A stretch of DNA of 64,000 nucleotides from Balanoglossus misakiensis (lineage: Eukaryota > Animalia > Hemichordata). The notes beneath the pieces are model-generated. The model was given only the letters and a program-made list of their open reading frames with translations. It searched no databases and was not told where the DNA came from. The translations under genes were made by a program, and so were the position numbers. The stretch spans positions 12,368,875-12,432,874 of the forward strand of contig CM082584.2 in assembly GCA_040954595.2 (NCBI GenBank), given 5' to 3'. Of the stretch, positions 197 through 64,000 are shown piece after piece; positions within the stretch are counted from its first letter, which is position 1; every line of letters starts with the position of its first letter.

Positions 197-3100
197 CCCT
201 TTTATCTTGGTCGCCTGAAATCAAGAAGAGCATTTAGTTATATTTGTGTAGAGAACGTGAGCGTGAGAGGATAGTTTGTACGGGTTAATGGAAACGAAAA
301 TTTGATACACTGTAATTTAAATATTAGTAAATGAATGAATACTTTCATATTTTGATGGTAAAATTCTCTTACCTGTCGCGCTGGCATCTTTTTTGTCAAC
401 CCAGAAAACTGCAATACGAAAGATAGAAAAACATTACTGTGGACTTTCTTTGGACCTACGCCTGTGGGACTTTCGTGTTTACACCCACACATCACTATGA
501 GACAAATTCTAAACTGGTAATTTCTATCATCAGAAACTATTTAAAACTTACCTCTCTTGTCTTTGTCATCTGAAGATATTGATTATGTGTGGGAGAAAAA
601 AAGAACAATGAGTGAATTTGGATTGTGAAATTAAATATGTGTAGAATTGATAATACCTTTACGTCTTAGTTTCTAGAATATGTGGACAGCTCATTGGTAT
701 AAAAGATCATGCATTCATTCATTTATTCATTCATTCATTCATTAATCGGAGGGACTCTGGTATTTAAAATAAAACAACATACCTGCTTTCGCGTCTTTCT
801 TGTCGACCCAGAAAACTGCCGATGAACAAAAACAAGGGCGATTAATAGTAATGCATCATTAATAGTTAAATATGTCTTCTCTATCACTCGCATAAAATCA
901 CCCCACATGGCAATTTCTTTAGTTTGTTTTTATGTTTTATTGAATATAAAATAGTCAAATTAATATATAATTAACTAGAATGTCACCCTTACCTCTTTTC
1001 GCCGCATCTGATGCAAAACAAAACAAAGATAAGTAAAAAGATATTTATTAATTCATTCATACAGTTTGATATTCGTAGCATTAAATACATGGGGTTAAGC
1101 CTTATATGGTAAAATTCCAGGGGGTAACTTCCCTAGAAACACATCGAGATAATAAAACAACTCACCCAAATCCCCGTAGAGACCATTGTCTTTCTTTTCA
1201 ACCCAAAACACTGAAACGATTAACAGAGAGAAATGTGAAAACTTGTTGCCAGTTTACATATCATGAATGAAACAATTATCAAAATGAACATAGAGTAAAT
1301 TCACACAAAGTGTGAAGATTTGAAAAACATTCAACAAAGTTTGTTGTTCTGGTAGTATATGCTGGTAGATAGATTTCAAGTTGGTGGCATTTACAAGTGA
1401 TTTCTATGTAACACATACCTCTTTTGTCTAAATCTTCAGCTGGTGCTATGGACCGAATAAAAGAACAGAGAGACATCATGTAAATACCAATTCAAATAAA
1501 AGCGCATTTTTGATAGGCAAGGCTTGTGAATATATAGGTACGCGGATATGATACATGCATGTAAATACATAAAATATGTAGTTCTAGTAGACGTACCATT
1601 TTTCTTGTCCACCCAAAATACTGGAGAAGAAAATGAAAGGCAAGTTGAGTAAAGTAACAGTCATCGATTCATGGCTTTTTATGTACGGAGAAATACTATG
1701 GGATTTTTTCTGAAAGGGCGCCACCATCAGGCCATGTTGCCACGAAGCTTGCATATATAGATAGATTATCCACTGAAATATTTTACATAGTCTTAAGACG
1801 ACAGCAATCTGTTTTAAAAACTTAGATCCGGACAAGTCTTACCTCTCTTTTCGTCGGCATTTTCTACAAATAAATGAAAAAACAAGCGCGGATTGAGAAT
1901 CAATGCAAAAAGGTGACTCCTTATTTCTGTTATGAGTCAAGTTCTTTTTTATCTAGGACGTGTTATCAACAAAATAAGTTAAATGTCATATATAAGCTGA
2001 AACACCTGAAGTAAGAATGGTCTGCTTTGTAACTGCAAATGTGAAAACTAAGGAGGGTAAAGCTAAAATATACCTTTCTCGCTTGTATATTTTACTAACT
2101 GCAGTGAGAACAAGTAGTATGAAGTCTCTTCTCTTTCATTATTTTCATATTTGGGATGAAGAGCTTCGAGTTGTTGGCGGCAGAAGCTTTGATTTTTTTC
2201 ATGTGCGGCAGAATCAACCTTTATTAAGGGTATCATCAGAAACGTTGCCATAAGTAGGCCTGTTTCAATTTCCTTGCGTATTTTCCGGCACCACAGATAG
2301 TACGTGATGACTAGACAGCGTATCAAAGACTACGCAATAGTTACTGCATGACATGAACCACTGGAAGCCCCGCAGTAATTGAAACACGACACCACGAGGA
2401 AAAAATATGAAATGGGTAATTTTTTCGACTGATGCTTTTAATGTCACAGAGACTGCCTGTCAAGGGCAAATCAAATCCTTAATTACTTTGACATGACTTA
2501 CCCAGATCAGCATTCTTCTTCTCCACCCAAAACACTGAAATTTGGAAAGTAGTAGAAGAGAATCAATCTTGTATGAGAATATCTTCAAAGTAACCCGCCC
2601 ACGTCATTGAAGAGAAGAGTTACTAAAACTTCATCATCATATTTAGTTTTGTTAGTGTCTTTATTGTACAAATGGTTAAGTTGTTTAATGTTCCAATTCG
2701 ATTTTATTTCCAATATATCTCACCATTTGCTTTTGTAAAGGCTGAATCAATACAGACACTTAACTCCATGACGACACAGACCCTTAATACAAAAACGATA
2801 AATCACAAATTGTATTACGGTTGATTCTCCTCATAATTGCATCAGGATCTCATCTCTCTCTTGGTTTCATTTGTTTTCTGAGTTCATTGGAGTGACCACA
2901 GGGGACAGCTGAAGACAGAATTATTCCGCTGTGACCGCCGACGATTATTTGCCTTGAATGATCTGCTTTAAATTTGTCTCAGCATTTCCTGGCTATGTGA
3001 CTGTTTACGCAACGTCACTCATGTGACAGCTTTGAGTCCTGAATGTGTCGTTCTTAGTATTCGAGAATTACGACCGATGGAGGTTGATTCGATTCTTGTC

Positions 3101-6100
3101 CTAAATTGCACGTCTTTAAATCGAACAACAGATACATGACGCGAAGATTTCCCCGGTGAAAGAGTTGCTAGATAAACATGTTTGATGGAAATATGTGTGT
3201 GGCGTGGCTATACCAAGGATGATTTACGGCTGCTTGAAAATGCCGATCTTGATTTACAACAAGTGAGCAATCCAAATCCGCTATGTTCAAAAGAAATTGG
3301 AGTACAAGAACATACCGTATTCAACACAGACACATTTACGAAATCTTTTACTGGGAAAATTAGACAACATTAACTTATCTTACGAATTTCCTTGGTATGT
3401 TTTGACTGTAATAGGTTTTTCTTTTGACAAAGTTGACTGTCATTTCTTGTAAGAAATAAAGACGCATTTTCTGGGAATGCGGCAATTTTGCAAAAGTGGA
3501 CATTTTCTATCGAGGTCACATCAACAATTGCTCTACATTGCAGAAGGGTGTACTCTTTTTCACCCACGTATATACGGTACATGCATGTTTTCGCGACAAC
3601 TTCTTAGAGATGCATTATAAGTCGAGAGTATTGAACATCTAATCTTCAGATGATATTTAGTGAGAAACGGCAAGTTACAAAGGGACAATTGTTATAATTT
3701 GCATTTTGAAATTAGAATGACAGGATAGTTTAGAAATATATAAGCGAATCTTGTCAACTCATCAAATTATAACACATTTCTTTTTTGTGGTCTGTGAGAC
3801 AATTCCAAGGCGGCACAGATGCTTTTGTCACAGTTGGCGCCAATGTGTCGTGCATGGTTTTGTTTATTTATTTTTATACTGACTTTGATTCGGAGTCGGA
3901 TAGGTTCGCGTTTATGACCATAACCGACATGGATCACTGCGGAGAAAAATATGCCCCTGTGATGTCTTAATAATCACTTACCTCTCTTTGACGTGTCACG
4001 TTTGTCGATGTTTTTTTCCTGTCTGGCTGGTGCCGCATGAACTGTAAAAAAGAAAGAAAACAAAAATTGACATTGAGAAAAAAATGTCAATGTACTTTAC
4101 GGATTGCATGTGTTTATGCCATTGATGTTTTGAATTTCCCCATATTTCATTTCAACTTTTTTTATTTTTTTATTTGCTTCATTATTTATGCAGCGAGCAA
4201 AATCTCCCAGGTAATGGTTTTTTTTTATTTTTTGTGCGCAGGACATTTGATGCTACAAGGCTTTGGCAAAGGTTGTAAAATACTGGTTTCATAAAATATC
4301 TTTAGAATTCCACTGTAAATCATCGACAATGCTCATGATAGATTCTGTTGATATGTTCAGACGGTTTTCCTTGATTTCCTCTTTACCATTTATTTCTACA
4401 CGACAACCTGGGGATGGTCACGTATTTGCAGTCTTTTTTCATCATGACTGCTGATAAGTAAACGCTAGTGCGAATATTTAGGGTCTTTGCTGTGTTGGAA
4501 AATATTTTAATTCCCCCATGGACACCATATACGATATGGTTTGATATATTCACATAAATCACTATTGTTTTGTTGATAAGGGTAAAGTGTGTACAAGTTT
4601 GACATTTAAAGAGTTTGGTATCTTCCGAATTTGCATTGTTATTGTACACCTATTGCCGTATAACCAATGGAATTCCGTTGAACGATAATTCTCAGTGAGA
4701 GTCCAGTAATGATGCAAATGAGGATACGGAGTCCAATAATACCAAGAGTTGTTGGTGTTTGGAAACTTCAATGATAATTCTTCATAAAGCACCACAGTGG
4801 GGCTTACTTGTGAAGTTTAACGTCGACTATTAATTTCTCAGTGATTTCTGTGCCCCTCGGCACGACCCAAACCACAGCGACTTAAATGACAAATGTTCCC
4901 ACGGCTGCTATTTCAACATCACGTCGTGTACTGACCTGCTGGCCAGCTTTACCAAACCATATCACGTCTCAAGAGTTTATATGTGTGTTCATTTTTTTTT
5001 ATTTCGAAACACAAACGAGCCAAATACTTCAGCAGGTCACACTTAGCAACGTTAAATATGTCACTCTTTACGTGAATAACTTGCGCAGACATTTTAATGG
5101 CACAATGAAGCGCTGTCGTAAAATAATCACTCGTAAAGAAACATTTGCAATATCGCCAGTACATGTGCGTCCAATTTTACAGATAAACGCACCTGAAGAC
5201 ATTAATGTCGTCAGTAGTTTTGAGTACGTGCAAGTGATGATCTAGAGGCGCCAGATGTAATGTTTTGCTTCAGATCAAAACAGCAGTTGATGACCAATTA
5301 CATGTGCATTTACGCTGGTAAAAACCCGATGAGAAATCTCATGTACGGATTTCGTAATCGGTAACGGATAATTTCCAGTATCAAAAGCAAAGGGCGGAGT
5401 TCTCTTAATTTTTTAGAAGAAGTGAAATGGTTTAATCAAAATCAAATAACGTGCGAGAATGAAAAACTCATTGTTGCTTCAGTGAAAACCTTGTCCAATC
5501 TATTCAGGTGTTCAAAACACAAGAGACCTACTTTCCTTCCTCTAAGTTGGCCTTTTCTCTTACACGGCTACACATTCAAAAGAAGCTTGATAATAAACGA
5601 CTGCATAATATACGTGTTATAAACCCCTGTCCATATCATATCATAAAAAGTTTCCTTTGTAAATCTAGGCACTCCCGACAACAGAGGAGACGGAATGTTC
5701 TATTTCGAGGATTAGCAAAACTGACAAGCATGTATTCGCGGTTGAGAGCAATTAGCTGCCACGTTGCTCTCACTGACTTCCAGCAAAATTGTTCGCATTA
5801 TGTTGACGACCATCGACGTGGAGTATTGCCTCCTCTTACCATACGAATGCGTGCTAATGGTTAGAACCTCGTTTTTTGGCACAAAACATGTCCCGCGGTA
5901 TGAAAATTACATAATGATGCAAGCGTATAATAGGTTGGAGTCTAGAAATATGTTGGGCAAAAACAAACATGCTTCCTTCTGACGTGACAGTGAAAGTATT
6001 TCAATGTTCCAATGGAGACAGAAAGGCTGAGTGAAGTCAGATAATAAAGCTAGAGTACCAACAGCGCTCTCATCATCATCCTTGTACCGTGAATATTATA

Positions 6101-9100
6101 TTCATGCATATAGCTTAGATCAAATTCCATTCATCTGTTGCTGCCTCTACTATACTAAGCCTCGGGTTTGAATTTCAAAGTTTTAATCACTATATCCCTT
6201 TAATATCAGTTAATATTGAATAAATCAATCTTTTTATGTGCAAAGATCCTAAAAATCTATTACAATCGATGGGTATTAGTTGTATTTGAGGTTTATCACT
6301 TTTACCTCTACGGATACAAATAAGGTCATGTTTCCAACAGTTAACAAACGTCAGTTTTGTCATATATGACCATGGACCCTTAACCCACTGTTTATTTTCC
6401 TGTTACTTGTATTTACTCGACCGAGTATCTCACGCAAGAGGTTTGGGTATCATCTCAGACTCCAAACTTTCCTCTTCATCACTTCATACATTGAAGAGAA
6501 ATTCAATCACATTAAGTGGATCAGTGACATTGCTGTAGTGTGTCCAATTTGAGAAGACATTACAGTAATTTTGTAGTTCAATATCGAACAGCCAAGCCAA
6601 CAGTATTCAGGTATTCCATCTTAGCCACGGATGTCGCTGAGAAAGTTCATGATCTTGGTTACAAGTACCCAAGTCTGTAACTTGTTCAATATTCAACATT
6701 TGTAGAAAAGTGTGTGATCGCGGCTTTGCGCGTAAGTGCATTTTATCGTCCAATGATTCAACAGATTCTGTGCGAATTCATAAGGTCTTTATACCCCAAC
6801 TCTTCAAACACCATTGGGCTATACAGTGTGATCAGCAAATTTCACAAAACGAAATACAAATTAAATTTCGAAGTGTTTGCCTTATCAGTCGTGTCAAAGG
6901 TCGAGACACCTTTACAAGTACACCTGAAACAGTGCCTCAAGAAACAATATTGTCCATTCCCTCAGTACATTATTCAACTCCATTCACAGCGACCTAGGAT
7001 CATATACTCGAAATGCCAAAGTTTCATAAACGTTCTACTCGACATTTATATGAAATTCAATTCACTATGGAAAATTTTCATAAGCGCGGCAAGAGAAGAT
7101 TCATATCTATGGTCGCTTATCTGTGGTCGAGGAAGAGTTATTGCTTTTGAACACAATTTACATGTTCTCGCCTGACTATTTAATTCTTAATACGATTTCA
7201 TGAGAAAGCAATTCTGAACGATTACGACTGAGCGACAATAAAAATAGCTGAACATACATAATAGATCGGTGCCGTAGGCATTTCTCTTGTGGTGTTATTA
7301 CTAAATAGCATGGCATCATACAAATGCGACGCCTTCTAAGTGACGAGAATGAGTTGATTTATCCCCTAATAAATTATTTCGAAACCAGATGTTTGGTACG
7401 TTTGGATCTTAACTAACCTGTGTAGATATTTGCCCGTTTTAACGTTAACATTATTTTGGTTAATTAAATATTTAACAGAATATCAAAGGGCTCATTGTTG
7501 GAATACCTTTTAGTGTTCAAATGAGACTTAAACTCGTGCGTGTTGCAAAATTAAGTTAAAATCAATAATACAGTGATGCGGGTTTAACAGGGAAAAGATG
7601 AATCGGTGCTAGTGATAATGTTGGCCTAGCCCACACTGATAAAAATCTATTCCTCTGGATTTACATACTTACAAAGTTTGAAAGTCACCGTCAGAAATAT
7701 TTTTGAGTCTCAGAATGACATTTCCCAGCTCTTCAATCCCTACAAAAATGCCAGTACCACAAACTTTGCCCGAAAGGTATTACTCTTTGGAGTTTCACTG
7801 TTGATAGCTCGACAAAATACGTTATCGCTTCGCGCGAGCATTCCAAACAAATTACATAATATGATAAATTGCACACTTAATGTGTTCCGGCATTTCATAA
7901 ATTCAACTAAGCTTAATACGTTGCTTATCGCAAGAAACGGAAAGCCCATTAATATTGATAAATTTAAGTTTGTTACCGAATGGATATCGTATGAATCATG
8001 ATTCTAATAGTATAAGCCGTTGATAGAAAAGATGTGACTGGCGGTGTTTTAGTGTGTTTTATCTACTTATTTTGTCATACTGTACATGACATGGACTATA
8101 CCATGCTGTGAGTCATATCTCATGGTGCTGGAGAATCTGTTCTGACTTTTAACCTACAAAATTCCCTCGTTGCTTCAGCCCTTTAATTGAGTAAACCACA
8201 TGCATTTTTCGAAGGGGGTTTGCACTAAATGCTTTTTACGGTTTATAAGGCACATGTCAACGCTGCGTTGGTCTGACACCCAGCACTGGGTATTGGATCA
8301 TGTCAGCATGGATACGGACGGCATGCATATAGTTGACTCTGGGAATATTGTTTGAAATTAATCGGTTCCCTACAGGAATGAGTAAACGTATGCTGCTTCG
8401 CATTCTATTCTCCCGTCAACATCGCAATAACCAAAGCCGAACACCTGATACCATAGCTAATCAGTGGTCAGAGATGGCCTTACTCTTATTCTGGTTTATT
8501 AATTGTTTTGTGGATCTGGTAATTCCATTACACTGAGTAAATATGATAATTGGACTAGCTTATATTATGATACTATAGTATGAACATTAGAACCACACTA
8601 GCTTTAGAATGTGTGTGAGGTGCAAAAGTAAGAGGTCACGCCATTTGTATCAATTTGGTTTTTCCAATATTCGCTCCAAAAGGGTCAGTTATCGGTTACA
8701 ATTATTTTTCTATTACAAATATATTACTCAGTGAATTTTTGAGGACATGAAGTGAAGATACCGTAAATTTCAGTGATATCGTAAATTTGCAAATATATCT
8801 TTATTTTGTTAAGAGCGACACTTGAAATTCATCAAATCCATCAACAACCAGAATACGAGCATGTTGAATCAATGTATGCAATGACACCACTCCACAGGGT
8901 GGGCAACAAATAACATCGGCAGTTAAAGTTATTATTGTAGATAAAATATTGATGTAATTTTATTTCCGGTGACCCAGGAGTCAGTCAGAGTGATTGCAAG
9001 TCGTAAATAAAATCTAGTGAATTTTTCGTCAACAATGCGATGACGTCAGCTGAATGTCAACTTAGACGGGTTTGCTGATAGATCTGCTTGAATTGTCTGT

Positions 9101-12100
9101 TCGGGTCCTTGTTCAACTTTTTACACCCGACCTGGTTCAATCACTGTAATTGATTTCAATGAGACACCGCTCAGTCAACGTCATACAAGATGTTCACAGT
9201 TTCAATCAATGTAGAAGACTAAAATCGGTGTATGACCCACTAATAAACGAGGTAAAACGTTAACAAACCTAGGGGTTTATTGCTTTCGAACCATTTCTCA
9301 TCGCGTCAGAGGTCCCTTTTAGCATTATCAACTGATATTCGTCAATAACAGAAGATGATATCTCAAAATAAATGGCGATTATATTCTAGACACACGTAAT
9401 TTCTGGATAATAGAAGTGCTTTTGTATTCCTAATCTGATCGGAATACAGGAAATGCTCTCAGATTTGTGTTTGGTTCACAGAGATTCGTAATAGAGTGTT
9501 GTTGGTGAAAAAATTCCATCATGGATAACTACGCAAGAATGTGGAGTCTGTTTTGGATATGTAAATATTGCAAAGTGAAGTTCACGTACGCACATGTGTG
9601 CCAAATCGGAAATGTCAAATGTAAAAATTCCCATTCTTTCAGTCGATATCTCTAAAATCAGTCGAATGTTTCAGTCTGCCAGACGGCGATGACGTCAGCA
9701 CCGATGCCTTTTGCGAGGGAAGGGAGCCAGGCCTAACCGTGTAATGTTATTTTCAAACCAGTTTGACGTCTTGTGCGGATCATATATTAATATTGACAAG
9801 GTTATCCAATTGACGATATCCCACTGCAATTGATGGCTTGGAGTAGTGTTTCACTCATAAACGCATGTCCTCCAGTTCACTGCAGTAATCAATATCGATT
9901 GAGTTTATTTTCCGATGCAATCCCAGGTGGTTCTCTTGGCTATATACACTTCTATCTGTGACGATCAAGGTAATAGAAAGGCTATCACATTCATTGAGGA
10001 TTTAACGTAAACGCGGAGAATTAAGCGATCGTGATAATGCTGCTGGGTCTCAGACGTTTGCAGTTCTGCTTAAAGTATTGACGTGGACGACTAAAGGATT
10101 GCGTCTCACTGCACAGGTCCGTTTGTAACTAAGAAGGAACAAAGCGTCCTCCCAGTTATTAAAATTTACACTAAATCATTCCATTTGCACGTGTAAATCA
10201 ATATAATCTGCTAATACAATCTGGCGAGGCCCTCTCCTTCATCGTGCCTATTTTGTTCAGCAGTACCTTCCTCATCAAATAGGCAAATTCGTTGCACAAA
10301 CCTCTCGGAAATTGGCAATTTCTCGCTCCAAAATCTATTTTCCACCCAATGTTTACCCGCTGAATACACCCTGAGGCCAAACTTACTTTTTTGATAAATG
10401 AGCATTTTCTAGGAATAAATTGCTCAGTGTTTGAAGTGTCGTGTCGGTCACTGTACAATTTCCCATGTGTCTGTGCCAATATACTTTGAAGTTTGACATG
10501 ACGCTGCTCAACTGGTAGATAAGAATAAACAAACTGTTTCGGGTTGGAAGGTCACTAGAACAAAAACCGAAGAAATACAAAGTCGAAAACAGTAAACTAG
10601 CCTAATGGTCTTTTTAGTAAGTGTGTTTCCGAAATAAAACGTAACTCGTCCAAGATGGCCGTCTGAAAGCATTGTGGGATAGCCTTTTTCCTTTAATGGA
10701 TGGACAAAAGAAGTTTTCCGAGATTATATCATGGACGCAAAAGTCAAATGTGTTTTAGGGGAAAGAATACAAATAAACGTGATCTCGGGTCTGGAAAAGC
10801 ACGTGGTAAAAGGAAATACAAATTTGGCATTTGGCTTCAGTCCCGACACTGATTTAATCAACGCTGGGAATGTTTGAATTGTAGAATGAAAACCGCGACT
10901 CTATGACTCTGGGGTGATCGATGGAGCCGATTCAACCCATGAAACCGCAGATTTCTGCAAAAATATAGATGATAGCATCAGCGACAATGTTCGAACTGTG
11001 ACGCGCCTTGCATAAAAAGAAAACATTTACACCTTGCAATATAATTCAGCTTCGAGTCTTTCTCGGTGTATCGCGCATGTGATGTGATATGACGACCTAC
11101 ATTGAGTCATCGTTTCTCTTATGCAATGAAGGAAATGCGCATGTGCATACAGAAGAGCTTGAGGAAAACTTAAAGTAACGTAAAAAGCTTGAGAAAAAGA
11201 ACAGACAAATGATACGCTGCTATGATAGCTTATATGAGATGCCCACGCCATCGCCTACGAAAGCTCTCAATGAAAAGAAACATCAGAACTTGCCGAAGCC
11301 GCAATGTTACAACTGGACTGCGGCGAATTAACAATCACGGCGACAATTTGATTTGGAAAAGCCAGAGCGCTGTTTTGTATGCCTGTACACAACCACTTCA
11401 AACCAACCTTTCCGTTTCTTAAGGATAGCTTAATTGGGCTTTCGAGTGTAACGACGTTATTGTGGTTTGGAGGTGTATTACATGGGCATGTCTCAATGCT
11501 CAATCAGACACTGCGCGATCGGATTAGCCAGGTGACACGTTAAGTCGTTCTTTAGCTCTTCCCGGATTCATCAGCACCGTAACACGCCAGCACTTCACCA
11601 AGATAAATGGCGTGTGGTTTTTATTTATATTACCGTTTTCGAATTTAATTTATAATCGAAATTGCGGATATCCTCGCAAATACGTAGAACAAGGCGCAAC
11701 ACCTGGGCTCCTCGAAAAGGGACTCAACCAATTTTCAAATATACAATAGATATCCATTACTGCATATTCTACTAGCTTTGCCTCATCATCATTCCTGATA
11801 AAAACGCTCCATCTAAGCCATCTCTTTGCCTGTTTGTTTTTGTAATTACTCCAGCGATTAATTACGTAAAGGTGTGACGTATATGGTACTGGAAATTTCC
11901 CTGCAGCTAGATATTTTACTGCCACCGAGAACACGCTTGAATGATTTATCAAAATTTATCTCGGCGGCTCTTGGCAAACAACACGTTTCGGCAAAATGGG
12001 GCCGATCATCGAGAATCCTTTGAATGGAGAAAATGGCAGGCTTGAAAAAATCTCCAAGCTTCTTTTGTTTGCCTAATGTCAAACCAATGCTGATTTGATA

Positions 12101-14033
12101 ATGTGTTTGTTCAATCCATCTCTTCATCCTAGTAATTTTCTGACGTCTGTCGATTAATATTTTGAATAGGGTGACTTTTTAGCTTATGCCTTTATCTGCT
12201 CCTTGTCTGCGTTTGAGATTGAAGGTTGTGACAATCTCGGTATTAACCTTTGAAAATTCTGTTTGATAATAATATCACTGGGCTTCGTCTGATGCCGTCT
12301 GTCTGCGTGTTCAGTTACCCAATCCTGAAAAGCGCACACCACAACTACAAAAGAAAATAACCAACACGAAAGCAACAGCACAAATCATTTCCTCCGATGT
12401 TGTATTAACTTTGGATTTGCGGTATCTGTTCGAGGGGGATACAAATAGCAACGAGATACCACTGCTTTCGGAGAATTCGGGATGCACTCTGATTCATTTG
12501 AAAGCTCGCAAAGACTGTTCCCGGAATCGAATTACCCACAAACATAAACGTCACGATATCACCATATCCCGAGATAAGGTTTGTGCCTTTTTATCTTAAG
12601 GGGACACACACTCCCGAGATAAGGTCTCATTTGTTATTAGTCTTTTGAGGACGGAAATCACCTGTATATCCCTCACCCAGGTTCAAAAGTGCCTCAACAA
12701 TGTCCTCGCGACTAAGTAGCTGATCAGATACCAACAGAAATGCGAAAAATGGGGAAATTAGCCGCGTCTTTGGGGGAATGGAAAACATGTACCGTAGTTT
12801 GCCGGGTAAGAGCCCCGGGTGCTGGGCCAACAGATTAGCGAAAAAACAGGGGGGGGCTTTAGCCCGGATATGGCCTCGAGATTTATGCAAATGAGGGATG
12901 GCCACCTCGACTTTTATGCAAATTTTTGAGTGGTTCATTCTCCGAGTCCAAGTCGGGATCTTCCAATGTTGGGTGTTTCGCGTCGAGGACGGACTGAAGC
13001 AGCTCCACGCGGCCGCTTTGGAAAGCTCCCCGGTGACCTCACACGCGGCAGCGCGTCCATCTACGTGATCGTTGAATTCGAGGCACGGTCCCGAGGGACC
13101 TGTCTGAGGTCATGTTTTCTAGAGCGGCTATATATAACTCAGCGTGGCCAGTCGGCCGCGGTGGGTACGATAATCAGCGCGAAAGTAAATCATCATACAT
13201 TTTTTTTTTCACTTTTAGTGACTTTGGGGATGAAAATCCGCCTTTTTTGCATTGCACTTTATTAAATTTCCAAGAATTTAATGGATATTCGGCCGGGGGG
13301 GGGGGGGGGGGGGGGGGGCTTTAGACCGGATATGGCCTCGATCTACAAATGGGCCCTAAAACCAGGGGGGGCGTTTGTCCGAGCAGGGGTTCTTACCCGG
13401 CAAACTACGGTATGAACATTTAATCTTGTCGTGTGGCCCAAGCGATTCAACTGAAGTAAATTTAATCACCAGATTGTCCATTTTCTGACGATAGATTGGC
13501 TGCATTTCTCAAGATAACATAAGGCAGTTTGAAATATCAAATGACATCTGACCATTACTCCTGGGTCGCTCATTAAGACCTAGAACCTACCTCCGACCGC
13601 TTTGGAGTTTATCTTGAGGAAAACCCGAAGGTCAAAAAACGTAGAAAGGAAACTCGGACACAAATTTTGTAGATTTAATCCAAAATGAACTTAGTCCATT
13701 TAACACATAAAGCATCTGAATTGAAATGTAATTAAATGCATCGTTTATCAGGTTTAACTTCTTTCATGTGTGACACTTTCGATTCAAAACGTCGTTTTTA
13801 TAAATAAATGGTACAGTTTGAGGCATGTTTCCCTGTTGGACAAAAGAATACTTTGAGATGATCCATTGCAATGCAGCCGCAGTGTGTTTATGTTCTTGAT
13901 GAGCGGCTTCTCAAGTCTTGTCAAGTCGCCGAAGCGCTGCCATATTTGTTTCCGTGAAGAGGAAATATGAGATCGACTTACCTGAAAGAACGCCGAGGAG
14001 AAGAATGGACACGTAGAAACAAATGTTTGCCAT
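197..14033 (-). CDS. Neuropeptide/prohormone precursor with repeated KR-VFWV(D/E)-KK peptides, encoded by microexons; 3' end lies beyond the left edge of the window
   Basis: Coding exons in minus-strand order, all bounded by AG/GT and joined in phase 1: 14033-13982 (MANICFYVSILLLGVLS), 4041-3982 (VHAAPARQEKNIDKRDTSKR), 2534-2502 (VFWVEKKNADL), 1863-1843 (ENADEKR), 1620-1597 (VFWVDKKN), 1445-1419 (APAEDLDKR), 1210-1166 (VFWVEKKDNGLYGDL), 1007-993 (DAAKR), 815-783 (VFWVDKKDAKA), 569-552 (DDKDKR), 408-373 (VFWVDKKDASAT), 214-197 (GDQDKR). A hydrophobic N-terminal signal peptide, dibasic convertase sites, repeated short peptides and acidic spacers are classic precursor architecture. The link between the 14-kb exon and the rest is inferred from phase compatibility and the continuous signal peptide (…LLLGVLSVHA/AP). 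Confidence 0.88.
712..743. repeat. (CATT)n microsatellite, intronic
   Basis: cattcattcatttattcattcattcattcatt. Confidence 0.85.
12790..13412. mobile_element. Non-autonomous DNA transposon (MITE), Tc1/mariner-pogo-like, TA target-site duplication
   Basis: The left end TA-CCGTAGTTTGCCGGGTAAGAGCCCC (12790-12816) and right end GGGGTTCTTACCCGGCAAACTACGG-TA (13386-13412) are 25-bp inverted repeats with 1 mismatch, flanked by TA. There is an internal direct repeat gggggggctttag(c/a)ccggatatggcctcga (~12849-12879 and ~13312-13341). It is GC-rich relative to its flanks and has no transposase ORF. Confidence 0.88.
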
Positions 14034-14042
14034 AGTTAGGAC
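13982..14042 (-). CDS. Signal-peptide exon of the VFWVD precursor (9 nt UTR, then ATG at 14033)
   Basis: Acceptor ctcttctgttttgtctctag|GTCCTAACT ATG GCA AAC ATT TGT TTC TAC GTG TCC ATT CTT CTC CTC GGC GTT CTT TCA G|gtaagt. The acceptor before the ATG implies an upstream non-coding exon. Confidence 0.8.
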
Positions 14043-38314: not shown

Positions 38315-39403
38315 TCACCAGACTTTGTGCTTCATCACCAGATCTCCGATCACTTGCATGTATTTTGGGGAAAAGTCTTTCAGTGCTAGAGACAGCAAGA
38401 GAGGTTTACTAGTAGGCTCCGTACAGATTTTACTGGCAAGGTTCTTGGCATAGATATGAATCCCTGGCTGTTGAAATAATGCAAAACATAAAAAAATGTT
38501 AGCTCAGAAACAACTTTCGAGATAACTTAAAAACATGGTGTACAAGTGAATCGAACATGTAAATAGTCTACTGTTGAAGACTCGAACCATTACTTTTGAT
38601 CCATGGAATCTTGTAACTTACCTCATCTTTTCCAAGAAGAACCTTGGTTGTAAATGATGGGGATGATACCTCTACGAAACCAACCAAGTCTTTAGTCACA
38701 TGAACCTAGAAAAATAACAGAAAAATGCACAGTATTATACATCGTGATTTAAATAATAATTCTTAACAGGTGCATCTGCACTTAACTTAAAGTAAGGCAA
38801 GTTTACATGTTTCAAATAAACAGCCTTTCAGTATGATCACTTACCAAAGTTCCTAACTTTTGAAATTGAGTGACCACGATGAATAACCTATCTGAAAACG
38901 CTGTGCAGATGACATCTGTATGAACTCCGTCTATAGTAACAGCTCCCTGGATAGGTGAAAAAAGAAATTTGGTTGTTTATCACTGAAAGAAACTGTTGAG
39001 TTTTAGTCACATCATCATCATTATCCATCAGCATCGTCATCATCATCTTGGTCATCATTATCATCATCATCATCATCATCATCTCCTCCTCCTCTTATAT
39101 AGCGCATTACATTCTATACCAGGCAAAACCAAGAGCGCGTTATGCATGCAGCATGGGGGTACCTCCATGCATGCAGCTACACATACAGCCTGAGCATAGA
39201 ACATGCACTCCCTCAGAGGGGGCGTGTCCGCTTGATTGGCTTGAACAGGATACAACTGCATGAATCATACGCAGTGACGATAAAATGTTATACTTTGCGT
39301 TATTTATCGCCATAGAGATAAACAATTAACAGGAACTGATTCACTGTACCAAGTCATCGTTGTAACTTACCTGTTTCGTCTGCAACACTTCCCCGGCCGC
39401 CAT
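38315..39403 (-). CDS. PSMG3: Proteasome assembly chaperone 3 (PAC3), 123 aa, 4 coding exons
   Basis: Exons 39403-39371, 38946-38845, 38705-38622 and 38467-38315 (all phase 0) give MAAGEVLQTKQ GAVTIDGVHTDVICTAFSDRLFIVVTQFQKLGTL VHVTKDLVGFVEVSSPSFTTKVLLGKDE PGIHIYAKNLASKICTEPTSKPLLLSLALKDFSPKYMQVIGDLVMKHKVW*. This matches the PAC3 signature motifs (CTAFS…VVTQFxKxGTL, TTKVLLGxDE, AKNL, terminal VW). A minus-strand AATAAA lies at 38031-38036. Confidence 0.95.
39010..39093. repeat. (CAT)n/(CCT)n trinucleotide microsatellite in PSMG3 intron 1
   Basis: catcatcatcattatccatcagcatcgtcatcatcat…ctcctcctcct; this explains the poly-His/Met/Ile ORFs in the track. Confidence 0.85.
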
Positions 39404-39753
39404 CTTGGGGAATACCCCTTTACCAACCCCCTAACTAGGTGAAAATTTCAACGTCTATTTTGAGGAGTTAGAAGTCTCAGTTTCTTGTTGAAATTGTTGC
39501 TTATCTGTGAAAATTGTCTTTATACCCTTTTTGTGAGATATAAGCTGTTTTATGCGAATACTGAACAAAAATAACTGTTTCGCGTTGGAAATTCTCTTCC
39601 GCGACTGTTTTGAATAATTAACACCAAAACGAGGCAACAGAATTCCCATACAAAGTTGGGTGGTCTGCTGTGTGCATTGCATGACGTGTATAAATAGTAA
39701 TGAGCACGGTAGCAGTAGATATTTACCATTCCTGAGCTGATACAGTGCCCGCG
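39404..39753. promoter_or_regulatory. Bidirectional promoter region shared by PSMG3 and P4HTM
   Basis: The divergent start codons are only 350 bp apart. A YY1-type CAAGATGGCGGC overlaps the PSMG3 ATG, and a half-CRE TGACGT plus TATAAATA sit at ~39682-39696, upstream of the P4HTM ATG. Confidence 0.7.
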
Positions 39754-42700
39754 ATGCCAGGCGTTACGCTCTCTCTGTCCGTGCTGATCGTGTTAGCGTG
39801 CCTCGTCGAAGTTTCGGAACTTCATGAAGCGCATAGCGGGGCCGAGAAGTACACAGATCCGAACAAGGTTGTGGAGACGTGCAGCAGGGAAGATCAGAAA
39901 AGTGGGAATTGTGAGTTGGATCAAGTTCGATTGACCAGACTGGATGGCGTGAAGGTAAAAGTTGGTAAAAGTTGAATTATGGATTAGCGGAAAAATATCC
40001 CAAAGTTAATTAATCATCCCCCTTTTTTGTTTTTCTCATTTTCTCACCTCTCATCACTTTTAATACTTTTATTAATTCAGTTTGTTTTCCCTTGGAATCA
40101 TATCTTGAAAAGTACAAAAAAGTCAAAATGTCAAGGCAACAGGTGGAGACCAGGCTACACGATTGTTACCATGGTGAACCATGTGTATCCAAATGAATCA
40201 GGCATATATATTGAAATTCATTAGTTGACAAAAACCGAACATTGCTTGGACAAGGTAAATCTTGGGTTTTTCACCAAGTATAGTGAGCAAAAATGAACAG
40301 ACGAGAGTTCAACAAACGATAAGGCCGCTTCCCTTTAACCCTCTTAAATTCCTGGTTCCACCTCATGGGTCAATTGAAGATTAGTGGGGCATGCTTAAAA
40401 TGTCACAAGGGGCTGTGACCTCTGCCCAACCCAGAAGAGAACTTCAGTGTTTAATTTCAAAAACAGGTTTTAGTAATACGTGTGGGCGAAGGAGCTGTCA
40501 AAGAATTTGCAAGAGCGAGCACGAGCGCAAGTCTGGCCCAGTAATTGATTTCTTTTTCCTCACCCACTAATGGACTCCCAACGTTATTTTTTTATTTGCT
40601 TTACATAATGGCAGGAGGGTCATGAAAAGAAACTGGATCTTGTTCCCGGCAAGACGCATTACTTGAAGACTATAAACATGAAGCCTTTGATCTTTGGTAA
40701 GTACAGTGCAGCCCAGACGTTTTTATTGACAGCATCAATACTTCATTGTTTCGAGTACGTATCGTTCTGAGCAATGGTGGTTAAGTAAGTATTTGCTTAC
40801 AAGTAACAGAGTGATTCAATCAATGCATTCCACCCAAGGGCTTTTATACTGTGAATGAAGTCTTTCATGTACAGCATGTACTAAGAACTGAAGGCATTCT
40901 GGCATCTTGTGAAAGGTCAAACCATGCTTCTTCTCAGAGTATACATTAAATTTCAGGTAACAGATCTTGAAGCACCAGGTATATGATAATTAACACTAAT
41001 TAATGATCTGACTGTCCCCACATAACATTGGTTGTGACAGGAAAATGCGAGTTGAACTTTGATCACGTTAATCAAAACATTACCAGCACCAAAAGTCGTG
41101 CTGGCACTGTGTACCATATGGGCTATAACACTATCACAATTAAACCATATGGTATAGCTTTATTCAGAATTCCAGTGTATCCTTTGACTATTGATGGTAA
41201 TACTGTATCTGCCTAGTCTCACATTGTTCCGTTACGGATGAGGTGAGATTCAGGTTTCCATTTATAGGCAAATATAATTCACAGAATATGTACGTTGGAG
41301 TTTCTGTCTGTGTGCATGGATGCATGCATGATTTCATTTCAATGGGCCGCCGCTTTTATTATCCATACGTACACATGATGACCTTACATCCTGGCACTTT
41401 TGTTGTTGCCAATCCACTGTCGCTATTTCAAAGCTCTATAAACAGCCAACCAATTCAATGCAAAATACTCTGGATAAGACTGTAATTTCACACCTCAACT
41501 TGCAATTCTGATCTGAAGTTTCGGCCCTTGTAAAGTGGTGTCTGGAATCTATTATCCTGGCCTTGCATGGCCTCAGTTGGGGATTTCAATATTGATTCTG
41601 CACATAGAGAAGACACTGTTACTTAATTAGGCTGACCATGGGCTATAAACACTGACCAACTGTGGAAGTGTGAACGTGGACCAAATCAAACCCCCAGAGA
41701 AGATTTCTTAACCCATGGCCTGGGGTCCTAGACAGATAATGCGAACTACATGTGTGCCTTGTAAAGCAATCATGGCACTCAGACTTGACTGTGCACATGT
41801 GGGATTTTGTTTACTTATTTACAAGTAAAAACCAGTTTAGAAATCCAACAGCGTCCTGTTAGCACAATTCTGGGGACATGAAAATAACAGATGACCAATT
41901 TCCAAGCGCCAAACACCTCACTGCTGTTCCTCTCTCTCTGTTTCAGAAATTGATGGTTTTCTGAGCAACGAAGAGTGTGATCATATCATTGAGTTGGCCA
42001 AGAAGGTGGGGCTTAAGAGCAGTCAGACCAAGCAACAAGGCATTGAGAGCGGTATCAAAATCTATGACTTGGATGGTGACAGACATCTGGATTATAATGA
42101 GGTGGGTAAATACCTGACTGTCTGGTTCTGCATTTTTTTGCCCTGAAATTGAAGCTCTTCAAAACAGCAAACATTTTCAAATTCTCAATATTTACCTCAG
42201 CGCAAAATTTTCCCACCATAACAGTACTGCAGTTTATATATTCTTTCTCTCATACCATAAATAGAAATAACCCCTTTTTCTCTATTTTGATGGCTTTGTT
42301 GAACCGTAAAGCTTGTCAGTACATAACAATTGTTCAAAACTACTGGTATCATATTTATGGGTATCAGCCATACCCAGTACATTTAACTCGCCCATTTCAG
42401 CAGTTTTACGGTATTTATAGCTTCACTTTCCCAGACCACTTTAGTTTATTGGTGCCCAAGAGACAGATGGCAATTGTCATGAAATAAAACGGCCATTATA
42501 TGATATTGCAGACATGTCTTTTTAAAAGTGCATTAAATTTTTAGTATTAGGCAAATTTCTCTTTATGTACTCAGTTTACCCATCTCCTTTAGTTTTCATT
42601 AGTTTGGAAACTTTAATATTTGGTCACAGGGTCCTGAGTTCATAATTGTATTTTGCATTGTACTTGTCAGTTTTTCATGCACATATTTTAACATGCACTC

Positions 42701-45620
42701 TCATCTTTTCCTCCAGATGAGAATAACACTAGAATCAGCATTTGATGTTTACATGGTAGAAGATGAATTGAAAGAAGTGTAAGTCACTGTAAATTCATTT
42801 GATGAGTAGTGAGTTAGCTTTGCTTCCCCAGTAACTAATGACTAACTTGCATAAACAAAGTGCAAGCCTCTAAGATAATTGTAATTAACCAACATCTAAC
42901 TCACCTTAGTTTAGAACGTGTTTGATTCGATCATGTCATCTTTTAAATTTGAGCATTGCAATCCGATTAACAAGTCTAACTTCTGGCTGTTCGACTGAAG
43001 GTTTCCTGTTTAGCCTAGGATGTTAAATCTTGAAATTGGATACATGTACTACAGAATGCTAGCAGACACAGACAGATGGGCAGTTTGGTTTGTAACTGTA
43101 TGGCCAGGCATCCTTTAAGTCAATCAAAGAATGCTCTATACTACCTACATGTAACATCACAGACAAGGTCATCGCCGAATGGCCTTGACTGTCATCTTGC
43201 ATCCTGTCATCAAAGGGACCAATTCCATGATTATGTTTCAAAAACATGCGACTGACATTGACCATGTTGACAAGCTTGGCGTCTGGAAATCTCATCATCC
43301 TGAATGCAGTCAATGATTGTGATTTCAACATTGTAGGTTGAGAAATCCCAAGCCTGAATGGGAAAGATTCCAAACCTCACAAATTTATGCTCTAGACGTG
43401 TGTGCCAAACATAAGTATAGGCAGAAGTAACGATAATCTTTGCTTCCCATAGTTGACAGATTTATCTCTTATTTAAAAGTTAACATGTAATTGTAACTGC
43501 TTCTCCCTATATATCATCCCAGCACGTTACTAACAATTGCATGTTGTTGTCTTTTTTGCTTCATCCTTACCACAGCTATGCTGCACTGCAACTTGATAAT
43601 AATGAAGACGGTAAGAGTCTTGGCTTTTAAACACAGTTGATTGAAGCAGAAATCTCTGTTTATATTCCCCAAACTACACGATAAACACATCACATTTGGA
43701 GATGACGTGGAAGTGAAAACATTTCACATTCAGAAGAGACGCAGACAGATAAACATGCCAAAAGGAAACCTGTCTACTTCAGTGCAACCTCACACTCACT
43801 GATGTCTGCTAGTGTTTGTACAAGGCAAAGAAAGGGATAAATTTTATCTCAGTCATGACCATCTGTTGATTGCCCTCTGTCATAAAGTCACCCAATAGGT
43901 TAGCCAGATTTGGTTTTTGTGTAAGCAGATCAGAGTTTAATAGGGTCTGTGAGAACCGGTTGATCTTTAGCAGTTGAAGGAATATGGCCACCTCTAGCAA
44001 AGGGGAGAATTTAACAAATGATGTTGAAGATTTATTCTGTAGCGATTAATGCCAGTAAGTCTGATGTGATTCTTTATAGTTGTACATCTTTGACATCCAC
44101 AGAACTAATCAGTCAAGAAGAACTGAGCTCAATCAGCACGCATGACTTGGCGAAATTTCTCTGGGACTGGGTGCAGAAGAACCCAGAGCTGAGATCCCGA
44201 TACAGTGAGCAAGCATGGATCGCTCCAGACAAAGTTGAGGATGATATTGTTAATCAGTTTCAGCAAAGGTGAGGCAGATCTGATATTTTCAACGTTTGCA
44301 ATGATCTGAAACTGTCTATTGCGCCTAGCACACTAACTCACTACTTGTCTGCTTTCCATAATTATACACAGAATGTCAGACCTGCTAGAGTTGCCTCAAC
44401 CACTGATCAATAAATTCAACACTTTTCAAGTGGTAAGGTACGGCATCAAGGGTCACTACAATGCGCACACAGACTCCGGGTCCAATCCCAGAATGCCCTG
44501 CTGCCATCTCACTGAATCGGATATGTGTCAGAGTTGCAGGTAAGTGTTACCTCTCTCGACTGGGCTGTTCTCCAGAGGACTGCATGTGGTTCTTGCTGGC
44601 CATTCATCTATTAATGGGAAATGGTGGGGGATAGTTTTGTGGCATTTCTGCTTTTAACTCTTTCACCACCATGATTCAGTACAGACCTAATGGTAAGGTT
44701 GGATCTCTAAAGAGGGAACTGGGGTGAAACTGAGTGTCAACAATTTTATCTAGATTGATTGCAGTCTGGGAACATCATTGGTGTTGCTCCTTCTTCTTGA
44801 CCTCGTAATCTTTTCTGAAGTAGAAATGCAATACTGTCGTAAAAGTTCATTTTTATCCCCCATGAGTCAGATGCAGAGGTATTGATGTCAGAAGTAACTC
44901 TTCTCATGTGGTTCAAGTTACATTCATTCCTGATGCATCGCAGAACATTGCAATTTTACTGTTAAATTTTTAACAACTTCTGATCTGCGTTTAACAGAGG
45001 CACACTTAAGGTCACATGTGCCTCGAAAATCAAAGTCTTAAACTTTTTCTCATATTTTGCTCATGGCAACCTTAGATCTCTTAAAAGCCTCAATAACGAA
45101 ATAAAAATGCTCAGTTATAATTTCGGGATAAAATTTCATGAGCACTTAAATCTGATATGCAATATGCTTTCCCTTTTTGTACAGATATCTGACAGTGATG
45201 GTTTATCTGAATGATGTTGAAGAAGGCGGAGAGACTGCATTTCCAGTTGCTAACAACGATACGTTTAATATTCATGTGAGTAGAGCAGTTTGAATGTTTA
45301 AACATTTAGAAAAATCATGCCTTTGAAACAAGCTGTGTCGTAATAGCAAAATTTATATTTCTCTGTCGTTACAGGCTCTTCATAAAGGCACTTCACTCAA
45401 CTTGAACAGACACTGCAAAGACGCTAATCTGTTGGTGAAGCCTCAGAAAGGAAAAGCTGTGATCTGGTACAACCACTTTATTGATGAAGAAACAGGCTGG
45501 CTTGGGCCGCTTGACAACTTCACGTGGCACGGCGGATGTCCTGTTGCCAGGGGCAACAAATGGATTGCCAACCGCTGGATCAATGTCAGCAGAAATAAGG
45601 GAATCGACATGGTCTATTAG
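39754..45620 (+). CDS. P4HTM: Transmembrane-type prolyl 4-hydroxylase (EF-hand + 2OG-Fe(II) oxygenase), ~401 aa, 9 exons
   Basis: Exons 39754-39954, 40615-40696, 41947-42101, 42717-42778, 43576-43610, 44103-44268, 44372-44539, 45185-45275 and 45375-45620 total 1206 nt in frame. Motifs: LTRLDGVKEGHEKK…KPLIFEIDGFLSNEECDHII (P4HTM-like), EF-hand DLDGDRHLDYNE, RYSEQAWI, GHYNAHTDS (HxD), RYLTVMVYLNDVEEGGETAFP, WHGGCPV (distal His) and GNKWIANRW (2OG-binding Lys). Confidence 0.92.
44654..44729. mobile_element. Short TTAA-associated palindromic dispersed repeat (piggyBac-like mini-element), degenerate copy
   Basis: ttaactctttcaccaccatg…gagggaactggggtgaaa; its reverse complement aligns by eye with 55563-55632 and 52709-52744. 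Confidence 0.55.
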
Positions 45621-62300: not shown

Positions 62301-63851
62301 AACGTGCTTGTCGGAACCACGTTGTCATCACCTAGGAAACAGGTATCTTATATTGTGTATATTTTGATAGGACGTTTCTTGATGGTGAAGAGGAGAAGGT
62401 TAGCAACGAAGAGAGAGAAGAAAACGAGCAATGGTGGCATTCTAAACTAGCAGATTACTTTGAACTCGAGGACAATTTTACACGCAAAATTGAGGTAAAT
62501 AGTCTTTTATATCCCATACATATGAATATTGATAACAAATTTACGCCTTTCGAATTCATTTTGCTTCCAGTTTGATTCACATTTTGGTTCAACACACTAA
62601 ACCTCTGCTGCTGTAATGTCAAATTTCAGGAATATCCCTTCCACGTCGGTGAAGTTGGGAACAGTGCTGGCGGTGTCTTCAAATGTTTCACAACCTGGTC
62701 TGTATTTGATGAACTGTTGGAAGCGAACTTGCCCTGGTTGCTGGCCATCTGGGGAAAGGTAATCTCGATCCACATGCTACCGATTGTTTTCTTGTGACGT
62801 TTGAATTTTATCTATACCTTTAGTCTGTTCATCGCTTTGTGCTCAGCAGTGGTATATGTTTTTTTCAGACTTGTACAAGAGAATACATGATACAAATCTA
62901 TAAAGACTCGTTACATGACGTGGAGGTTCAAGAAAAAAGCAACCAGGTGGTAGCCCATCGGTATGGTCAAGTAGCCAAGTTCATGTGAGTGAAAGATTAC
63001 GAATCTCTAGTGGTTAATTTCAGGGAGCAGTGACATTACTGTTATCTACATAATGTTTTGCAAAAAAGCACAAGGCAGATATTTACCAAACACACAGTTT
63101 ACATGTGATCCAATTGGGCACAGTATGAATGCCTGTGTACAATTCACATGTCAAACTGTAAGAGAATCAAGAATTCTAATTACAGGTTCTTCGCCGAAGA
63201 GTATGAGTGTGCCAAAGAGTTCATAGCCAAGGCAGTAAAACGTCAAGAGGACAACGAAGAAGACCTGGTTCAAATGTACACACTGGCTGGTGACATTTTC
63301 CACCAGGTGAGAACTTCAGCTACCATACAAGTACTCCTGGAAGGTGCCCATTTTAATAATCAAGCTCGGTATCTTCAGCTGTCTAAGTTTGTTCTTTTTT
63401 GTTTTGCAGCATTTACTTTCCATGTCTGATTGCTTGAAAGATGAATACAAAGAAGAACTCAGAGAATTACTCAGATGTTACAAAAAGGCCATAAAAATTA
63501 GGCAAACTAATTACTTTACGCTAGAAAAACATAAGGTGAGACACTTTTCAATATTTGGACAAATACTGCCCTCTATGTTCAGTTGTTTGACTAATCACCC
63601 CTTTATCAATATTACACTTGCAGTATGTATGCTAAAGCTGAATTTTTCCGTTTTGTTTCAAAATGCTTTCATGATAAGTTTGTTGTTGTTTTTGTATCTA
63701 ACAGTACTTATTGGTAACCACAATTTGCAAGTATGTGGAGAATTTACATCGATGGCTAGTACTATTTAAAAATGAAAATTCATCAAATGGGAGTGATATC
63801 AGACGAGAAGCTGATGTCAATATAGAGGAGGCCATCAGGATTAGCAAAGAG
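59368..63851 (+). CDS. Tandem paralog: N-acylated NACHT/STAND-TPR protein lacking DUF4062; continues beyond the right edge
   Basis: Exons 59368-59670 (MGCGTSS…FFMKCREPQR), 59892-60085 (…IGRDTVL…LILHSEVGRGKTTVLAK), 60203-60317 (LFHYFVGS), 60505-60612 (IIVIIDSLDQ), 60730-60903, 61063-61247 (ENVLWL), 61434-61621 (GMKTSEL), 61919-62084 (VYKALRPF…FRHHLI), 62371-62494 (WWHSKLADYFE), 62630-62758 (EYPFH), 62869-62984, 63186-63306, 63410-63535, 63705-63851. It is exon-by-exon homologous to the upstream gene from its 8th coding exon on, with identical intron phases. A probable UTR donor lies after 58113 and an acceptor before 59290. Confidence 0.87.
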
Positions 63852-64000
63852 GTGAGCAATGTATTATTTATGTGGTGTAGCTTACTTCCATAGAGTTGAC
63901 TTAGTGAAGTTTGGACTCAACTAAAACTGTGTGAGATTATGTTCAGAACAGGAGATACTGTTTAATTCACTGACAACATTAAATAACCAACAGTTATCTT

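What the first reader, a model, noticed from the sequence alone, without database searches (positions are those of the whole stretch)
197..14033. Hidden neuropeptide precursor releasing repeated VFWVD/VFWVE pentapeptides
Seen in sequence: splicing 12 tiny minus-strand exons gives MANICFYVSILLLGVLSVHAAPARQEKNIDKRDTSKR-VFWVE-KK-NADLENADE-KR-VFWVD-KK-NAPAEDLD-KR-VFWVE-KK-DNGLYGDLDAA-KR-VFWVD-KK-DAKADDKD-KR-VFWVD-KK-DASATGDQD-KR…, continuing off-window. The five peptide copies vary at synonymous sites (TTT/TTC, GTG/GTT/GTC, AAG/AAA) while VFWV is invariant and position 5 only swaps D/E. The introns show no visible mutual similarity, which points to purifying selection on the peptide. Established: a signal peptide with dibasic-flanked repeats and acidic spacers defines prohormone-convertase substrates, and no Gly before the basic pair means no amidation. 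Inference: I cannot place VFWV(D/E) in a characterised peptide family, so this may be an uncharacterised signalling system with an orphan receptor, easily missed by ORF-based annotation.
Basis: partly seen in the sequence, partly recalled or inferred. Interest (0 to 1): 0.9.

Follow-up and report, generated by a model that had tools for sequence, protein, structure and literature searches.

The report
Acorn-worm version of echinoderm neuropeptide np18
This is an acorn-worm gene of tiny exons that encodes repeated copies of a five-residue peptide; it is the counterpart of np18, a nerve-expressed gene described so far from starfish, sea urchins and their kin, and its product is likely cut into signalling peptides whose receptor is unknown.

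Summary
Twelve minus-strand exons, all with phase-1 GT/AG introns, give an open 127-aa frame: a signal-like start and five KR-VFWV(D/E)-KK copies. The host is an enteropneust hemichordate near Ptychodera. The gene is not an orphan. Saccoglossus, Ptychodera and Glandiceps have orthologues with 9, 5 and 7 copies plus an 8-cysteine tail that lies off this window. It is the orthologue of echinoderm np18 (LFWVD): same flanked motif, same cysteine spacing as sea urchins, and the first two introns at the same residues and phase as in sea cucumber np18. Echinoderm np18 is expressed in neurons. I found no receptor or function reported, and a 2019 paper says it has no match in other phyla. Most likely convertases release VFWVD/VFWVE; release, receptor and expression in this species are untested. 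What is added: np18 is ambulacrarian, the short motif is its most conserved part, and copies appear to multiply as a two-micro-exon module. I found no paper naming a hemichordate np18, but key papers and supplements were not readable. The scan's earlier notes held nothing on it.

The parts
13982..14042 (-). First coding exon: acceptor, 9 nt of 5' UTR, ATG at 14033, most of the predicted signal peptide; the acceptor implies a non-coding exon further upstream (not located)
   Evidence: sequence; 78% identity of residues 1-37 to P. flava
3982..4041 (-). Exon 2 (60 nt): end of signal peptide, pro-region with a KR, and the KR before copy 1
2502..2534 (-). Peptide exon, copy 1 (VFWVE-KK + start of spacer), 33 nt
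1843..1863 (-). Spacer-KR exon, 21 nt
1597..1620 (-). Peptide exon, copy 2 (VFWVD-KK), 24 nt; this copy is absent from the P. flava gene models
1419..1445 (-). Spacer-KR exon, 27 nt
1166..1210 (-). Peptide exon, copy 3 (VFWVE-KK + a spacer conserved in Ptychodera and Glandiceps), 45 nt
993..1007 (-). Spacer-KR exon, 15 nt
783..815 (-). Peptide exon, copy 4 (VFWVD-KK), 33 nt
552..569 (-). Spacer-KR exon, 18 nt
373..408 (-). Peptide exon, copy 5 (VFWVD-KK), 36 nt
197..214 (-). Spacer-KR exon, 18 nt, ending KR + G; a sixth copy and the cysteine-rich tail are predicted beyond the window start
   Evidence: tails of the orthologues

Best explanation
The gene is the hemichordate orthologue of echinoderm np18 and encodes a predicted secreted precursor that prohormone convertases likely cut at KR and KK, which would release five or more non-amidated VFWVD/VFWVE pentapeptides and a disulfide-bonded helical hairpin, the pentapeptide likely acting as a neuropeptide on an unidentified receptor. 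Shown here: exon structure, repeats, purifying selection, orthologues, shared cysteine spacing and shared intron positions. From papers: neuronal expression of the echinoderm gene. Inferred: expression in neurons of this species, cleavage at KK, trimming by carboxypeptidase E, a GPCR as target, and copy gain by tandem duplication of a two-exon phase-1 unit (peptide exon + spacer-KR exon). The hairpin may be a folding or sorting partner or a second product; that is untested.
For: A profile made only from the five window exons found 3 proteins among 1.84 billion representatives: S. kowalevskii (E 1e-21), P. flava (1e-13) and a Logan protein with four LFWVD copies (1e-3). The next profile returned 12 proteins, all but the unnamed Logan one named as hemichordate or echinoderm, among them Ovnp18 itself. 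Across 44 copies in 13 sequences, KR precedes 44 of 44, FWV is invariant in 44 of 44 and KK follows 43 of 44, while spacers vary from 3 to 11 residues and are mostly acidic. Cys spacing 4-6-3-8-3-6-3 is the same in P. flava, G. talaboti and two sea urchins. An HMM from hemichordate tails alone scores those urchin tails 31.7 and 32.2 bits, reached by 0 of 300 cysteine-fixed shuffles. Sea cucumber np18 has CDS exons 1-67, 68-118, 119-151, 152-199, 200-366, all phase 1; intron 2 splits the first residue of the pentapeptide, as in 5 of 5 window copies, and intron 1 splits a Val three residues before the signal end, as here if cleavage is after Ala20 (residues counted by hand). Sp-Np18 mRNA is in serotonergic apical-organ and lip neurons (PMC6209648). 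Crown-of-thorns np18 is in the soluble nerve-cord proteome, with expression 3438 and 5718 in nerve against 1-214 in eight other samples (PMC9971248 Table S1). P. flava isoform X4 keeps the peptides and drops the Cys tail, and brittle stars keep only 4 of 8 cysteines.
Against: No mature pentapeptide has been seen: 'LFW' does not occur in the main text of the sea cucumber paper, which includes its table of peptides detected by mass spectrometry, and the starfish proteome was trypsin-digested. The C-terminal flank is KK in 43 of 44 copies and KR in 0 of 44; KK is a weaker convertase site (recalled), so the lysines may belong to a longer peptide. Two papers propose the long Cys-rich product as the ligand. 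The tail HMM beat the cysteine-fixed control in only 3 of 9 echinoderm tails (the three urchins); the three starfish and three brittle-star-type tails did not. The profile contained an echinoderm-type row, so its E-values are partly circular. The Cys tail of this gene itself is off-window and was not seen.
Confidence: 0.65

Rival explanations
1. Only KR is cut. The products are N-terminally conserved peptides of 13-18 residues that start VFWV(D/E)KK, and a last product in which the motif is tethered to the cysteine hairpin. In single-copy echinoderm precursors this is the 76-residue Arn18 of Semmens et al.
For: The second lysine is invariant in 44 of 44 copies and never drifts to R, although one base change would do it. 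Spacers 1 and 3 are recognisably conserved between enteropneust genera. PMC4772807 predicts a single cut at the KR.
Against: Most spacers differ freely in length and sequence (3-11 aa). KK follows the amidation glycine in brittle-star precursors, so it appears to serve as a cut site in this lineage (supplement text). PMC5627052 predicts LFWVD as the mature peptide.
Confidence: 0.22
2. The cysteine hairpin is the main signal or effector. The short repeats serve processing, packing or storage, for example as aromatic stickers that condense the precursor in secretory granules.
For: Eight cysteines keep their spacing between hemichordates and sea urchins. The tail folds as a confident helical hairpin, pLDDT about 90. 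AlphaFold draws four of the five motifs as strands, at low confidence. PMC6586643 proposes the long product.
Against: The tail's other residues diverge far more than the motif, brittle stars lost half the cysteines, and one P. flava isoform model has no tail. An invariant motif between basic pairs is hard to explain by packing alone.
Confidence: 0.09
3. In hemichordates the precursor is non-neural: an epidermal, mucus or gamete secretion acting as pheromone or defence peptide.
For: No expression data for any hemichordate were seen. The same precursor layout is used by egg-jelly and skin peptides (recalled).
Against: Echinoderm orthologues are neuron- and nerve-enriched, and low in egg, oocyte and testis.
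Confidence: 0.04

Closest known systems
Echinoderm np18 (Spnp18, Arnp18, Ajnp18, Ovnp18; LFWVD/LFWID)
   Same: Signal peptide, KR-xFW[VI][DE]-KK motif, no amidation glycine, C-terminal cysteine domain with the same spacing in orthologues, first two introns at the same residues and phase, 33-nt peptide exon.
   Different: Val for Leu at position 1; D/E (once Q) at position 5; 5-9 copies against 1 (urchins, starfish, sea cucumber) or 4 (brittle stars); a different phylum; each extra copy sits on its own pair of micro-exons. Brittle-star gene structure was not available to compare.
Vasopressin/oxytocin and NG-peptide precursors with neurophysin (layout recalled; also passages of PMC8557429)
   Same: Short peptide(s) after the signal peptide, followed by a cysteine-rich C-terminal domain.
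   Different: The tail has 8 cysteines and is predicted all-helical; no Pfam match above cut-off. An analogy only.
Acoelomorph LWDY and AWDF peptides (PMC6188537)
   Same: Short non-amidated Trp/Asp-containing multi-copy peptides, confirmed as processed by mass spectrometry in acoels.
   Different: Motif is W-D-aromatic, not F-W-V-D; none appeared in the homology searches; FWVD/FWVE absent from the one supplement held. No homology shown.
Disulfide-ladder helical hairpins (small Tim twin-CX3C proteins, vanabin; a nemertean toxin fold recalled from memory)
   Same: Two antiparallel helices with CX3C pairs. The four cysteines kept in all 11 aligned sequences are 1, 4, 5 and 8, which fits nested 1-8 and 4-5 bonds (inference).
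   Different: No significant structural match: Tim9 E 7.0 and vanabin2 E 8.4 by Foldseek; best VIA Z 7.5, only generic hairpins.

Membership tests
np18 precursor family | N-terminal signal peptide | tested here: met
   Hydropathy peak 3.0 over 9 residues; helix 3-20 in the P. flava model; homologous start in 3 enteropneusts. SignalP not run.
np18 precursor family | KR-[LV]FW[VI][DE]-KK motif without amidation glycine | tested here: met
   5 of 5 window copies; 44 copies in 13 sequences; Ovnp18 definition.
np18 precursor family | C-terminal domain with 8 (4-9) cysteines, in this gene | not testable with these tools
   The gene runs off the window start and no genome is held.
np18 precursor family | C-terminal 8-cysteine domain, in the hemichordate orthologues | tested here: met
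   3 of 3 species have 8 Cys; spacing identical to sea urchins in 2 of 3; HMM control passed for 3 of 9 echinoderm tails.
np18 precursor family | Conserved intron positions and phase | tested here: met
   Phase-1 introns in the signal-end Val and in the first peptide residue, in the window and in Ajnp18.
np18 precursor family | Expression in neurons or nerve cord | not testable with these tools
   No RNA run could be laid on the window; shown only for echinoderms in papers.
Bona fide neuropeptide system | Mature peptide detected and a receptor activated | not testable with these tools
   No such result found in the papers searched.
Neurophysin-bearing precursors | Neurophysin domain | tested here: not met
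   No Pfam family above cut-off for 5 precursors scanned; tail has 8 Cys and is predicted helical.
Known disulfide helical-hairpin families (Tim, vanabin, toxin hairpins) | Significant structural match of the tail | tested here: inconclusive
   Foldseek: none at E<=0.001; VIA: no Z>=8 among 48,161 chains.

The most novel reading that the evidence does not exclude
np18 is an ancient ambulacrarian signalling system with an orphan receptor. Its aromatic pentapeptide travels with its own four-disulfide helical-hairpin partner, a neurophysin-like role reached by another fold. In acorn worms the peptide dose is set by duplicating and skipping a two-micro-exon cassette, a direct genomic route to copy-number change in neuropeptide precursors.
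Probability: 0.2. Interest if true: 0.68.

Novelty: new member of a known kind. Interest (0 to 1): 0.45.

Why it matters
np18 is an echinoderm precursor for which I found no receptor or function reported, and authors disagree on its product: the pentapeptide (PMC5627052) or the long Cys-rich chain (PMC4772807, PMC6586643). A hemichordate orthologue dates it to the ambulacrarian ancestor. Repetition of the short motif with drifting spacers points to the motif as the ligand and names the peptides to synthesise for receptor screens in Saccoglossus and starfish. PMC5627052 says it is unclear how peptide copy number rises in a precursor; here each copy is one phase-1 two-exon unit, so the process can be traced across genomes. 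It also adds a marker to a hemichordate neuropeptide list that a 2026 preprint calls incomplete.

Tried and rejected
No genome is held for the window, so the 3' exons could not be read. The look-up of sequencing runs: no RNA holder listed; this is not evidence either way, and read laying was not used. Pfam: no family above cut-off for five precursors. PDB sequence searches: nothing significant. Foldseek and VIA-align: only generic hairpins; the nemertean toxin fold I recalled is not among the rows shown, so that lead is unsupported, not excluded. ESM Atlas: no usable hit for the Saccoglossus tail or the urchin protein. A link to annelid WLD peptides (recalled) stayed untested: the search did not complete, and WLD had 0 occurrences in the two papers checked. 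No protostome, chordate, crinoid or xenacoelomorph protein appeared, but short-word searches are weak here and one search scored only the top 7,993 candidates. Rejected: chance or low-complexity artefact, recent tandem DNA duplication (introns unlike), an alternative signal exon. The scan's earlier notes held no look-alike and one unrelated springtail precursor. D-amino-acid conversion of Phe2, as in achatin (recalled), was considered and cannot be tested here. No complex was predicted: the pentapeptide is under the length that tool scores.
Full report
1. The observation. Every intron is GT..AG and phase 1, and the spliced frame is open for 127 codons. A blind scan for short phase-1 exons found 9 of the 11 internal ones among 14 candidates; the two 18-nt exons were placed by eye. 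Five VFWV(D/E) words lie on one strand within 2.1 kb, against 0.015 expected in the window. Between the copies, synonymous sites are near saturation (pS 0.85) and the only amino-acid change is D/E (pN 0.026). The introns share nothing beyond 21-nt matches, so the repeats are old and kept by selection on the protein. The first coding exon lies 9.9 kb upstream. It is the only such candidate in 33 kb, and the junction is supported by the P. flava protein, 78% identical over residues 1-37.

2. The organism. An exon of the neighbouring transmembrane prolyl 4-hydroxylase is 82% identical to Ptychodera flava and 56-70% to the other named ambulacrarian hits. The host is therefore an enteropneust, probably close to Ptychodera (inference). 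In P. flava both genes lie on a contig of the same length, 45.7 Mb.

3. Relatives. A profile of the five peptide exons found two proteins in the 5.8-billion set and three among 1.84 billion representatives: S. kowalevskii LOC102807013, a P. flava protein, and an unnamed protein with four LFWVD copies. A profile of these gave 12 proteins, adding Glandiceps talaboti, Ovnp18 of Ophionotus victoriae, Amphiura, three sea urchins and three starfish (partly circular, as one row was already echinoderm-like). Copy numbers are 9, 7 and 5 in the three enteropneusts, 4 in brittle stars, and 1 in urchins and starfish. The window has five, and its last exon ends in KR plus G, which predicts a sixth. All 12 end in a cysteine-rich tail; one further P. 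flava isoform model lacks it.

4. Orthology to np18 rests on three lines. First, the motif: KR before 44 of 44 copies, FWV in 44 of 44, KK after 43 of 44 (isoforms P0015 and P0016 and the sea cucumber sequence left out). Second, the tail: spacing 4-6-3-8-3-6-3 in Ptychodera, Glandiceps and two urchins. An HMM built from hemichordate tails only scored those two at about 32 bits, above all 300 cysteine-fixed shuffles, and a third urchin was reached by 1 of 300; the six starfish and brittle-star-type tails did not beat that control. Third, gene structure: the supplement of PMC6586643 gives sea cucumber np18 five coding exons, all phase 1, with intron 1 in a valine three residues before the signal end, intron 2 in the first residue of the pentapeptide, and a 33-nt peptide exon. 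The window gene has the same two intron positions and two 33-nt peptide exons.

5. How it most likely works. Shown: signal-like start, basic pairs around an invariant motif, acidic variable spacers, no glycine for amidation. Established knowledge of prohormones (recalled): PC1/3 and PC2 cut after basic pairs and carboxypeptidase E trims them; PC2 is expressed in Saccoglossus (PMC10508912). From papers: sea urchin np18 is in serotonergic apical-organ and lip neurons, and starfish np18 is nerve-enriched and present in the nerve-cord proteome. Inferred: release of VFWVD/E from neurons and action on a GPCR (0.65). The open point is the KK flank, which never becomes KR. If KK is not cut, the ligands are longer peptides and a motif tethered to the hairpin (0.22). 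AlphaFold models of the P. flava and Lytechinus proteins make the tail a two-helix hairpin. The cysteines kept in all 11 aligned sequences are numbers 1, 4, 5 and 8, which fits a nested disulfide ladder (inference). No fold search gave a specific match.

6. Exon cassette. Each copy in the window is a peptide exon plus a spacer-KR exon, both phase 1-1, so either can be duplicated or skipped without a frameshift. The single-copy sea cucumber gene has the same two boundaries. Ptychodera and Glandiceps models contain KR-spacer-KR stretches with no peptide between, as loss or skipping of a peptide exon would give; a micro-exon missed by annotation would look the same. I did not see those species' genomes.

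7. What is in print. PMC5627052 (passages, sections 10 and 26, term search of supplements) names Ovnp18 and LFWVD and mentions only echinoderm orthologues in the text; FWVE is absent from its six held supplements, and Fig. 5f was not visible. PMC4772807 (passages) and PMC6586643 (section 36, passages, supplement rows) propose the long product, and the latter states no similarity in other phyla. I saw passages of PMC6209648, PMC9793003, PMC9971248 (plus one supplement row), PMC6188537, PMC8557429, PMC5860471, PMC10508912, PMC13554239 and bioRxiv 10.64898/2026.04.13.718258; PMC11868395 gave no hits. None of the term searches in these papers or their held supplements showed a hemichordate np18. 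Library searches for VFWVD/VFWVE, FWVD with neuropeptide, and np18 variants listed no such paper either (of only the top 40 of 2,019 and 882 were seen). Jekely 2013 was not held. Mirabeau and Joly 2013, Rowe and Elphick 2012, Smith 2017 and Suwansa-ard 2018 were not read, and the preprint's Supplemental Table 7 of Saccoglossus precursors was not seen; any of these may already list the gene. I put the chance that the link is unreported at about 0.6.

8. Verdict. A real, conserved gene and a new member of a known but uncharacterised family. It is a useful extension that sharpens the ligand question, not a new kind of system. Interest 0.45.

Noticed in passing
window 38315-39402 (-): Four-exon gene for proteasome assembly chaperone 3 (last exon Pfam PAC3, E 1.4e-7), head to head with the P4H-TM gene about 340 nt away.
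   Followed up: partly
window 39744-45620 (+): Transmembrane prolyl 4-hydroxylase-like gene; its last exon was used to place the organism.
   Followed up: partly
window about 48054-56719 (+) and 59368-64000 (+): Two tandem, diverged multi-exon genes, both starting with an MGCG motif that suggests lipid anchoring (recalled); the first has weak DUF4062 and TPR_12 matches below cut-off.
   Followed up: partly
window 993-1210 (-): The 11-residue spacer after copy 3 is conserved in the window, Ptychodera and Glandiceps more than the other spacers; it may be a product in its own right.
   Followed up: no
proteins P0014, P0015, P0016: P. flava gene models differ by one residue at a spacer and by loss of the cysteine tail (isoform X4), suggesting alternative splicing; one copy reads VFWVQ.
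   Followed up: partly
window 12806-13405: Short inverted-repeat-bounded element with an internal duplicated stretch in the long first intron, seen by eye; probably a non-autonomous DNA transposon.
   Followed up: no
window 14043-37400: About 23 kb upstream of the first coding exon with no gene recognised; the 5' non-coding exon expected from the acceptor at 14043 and from sea cucumber np18 should lie here.
   Followed up: no
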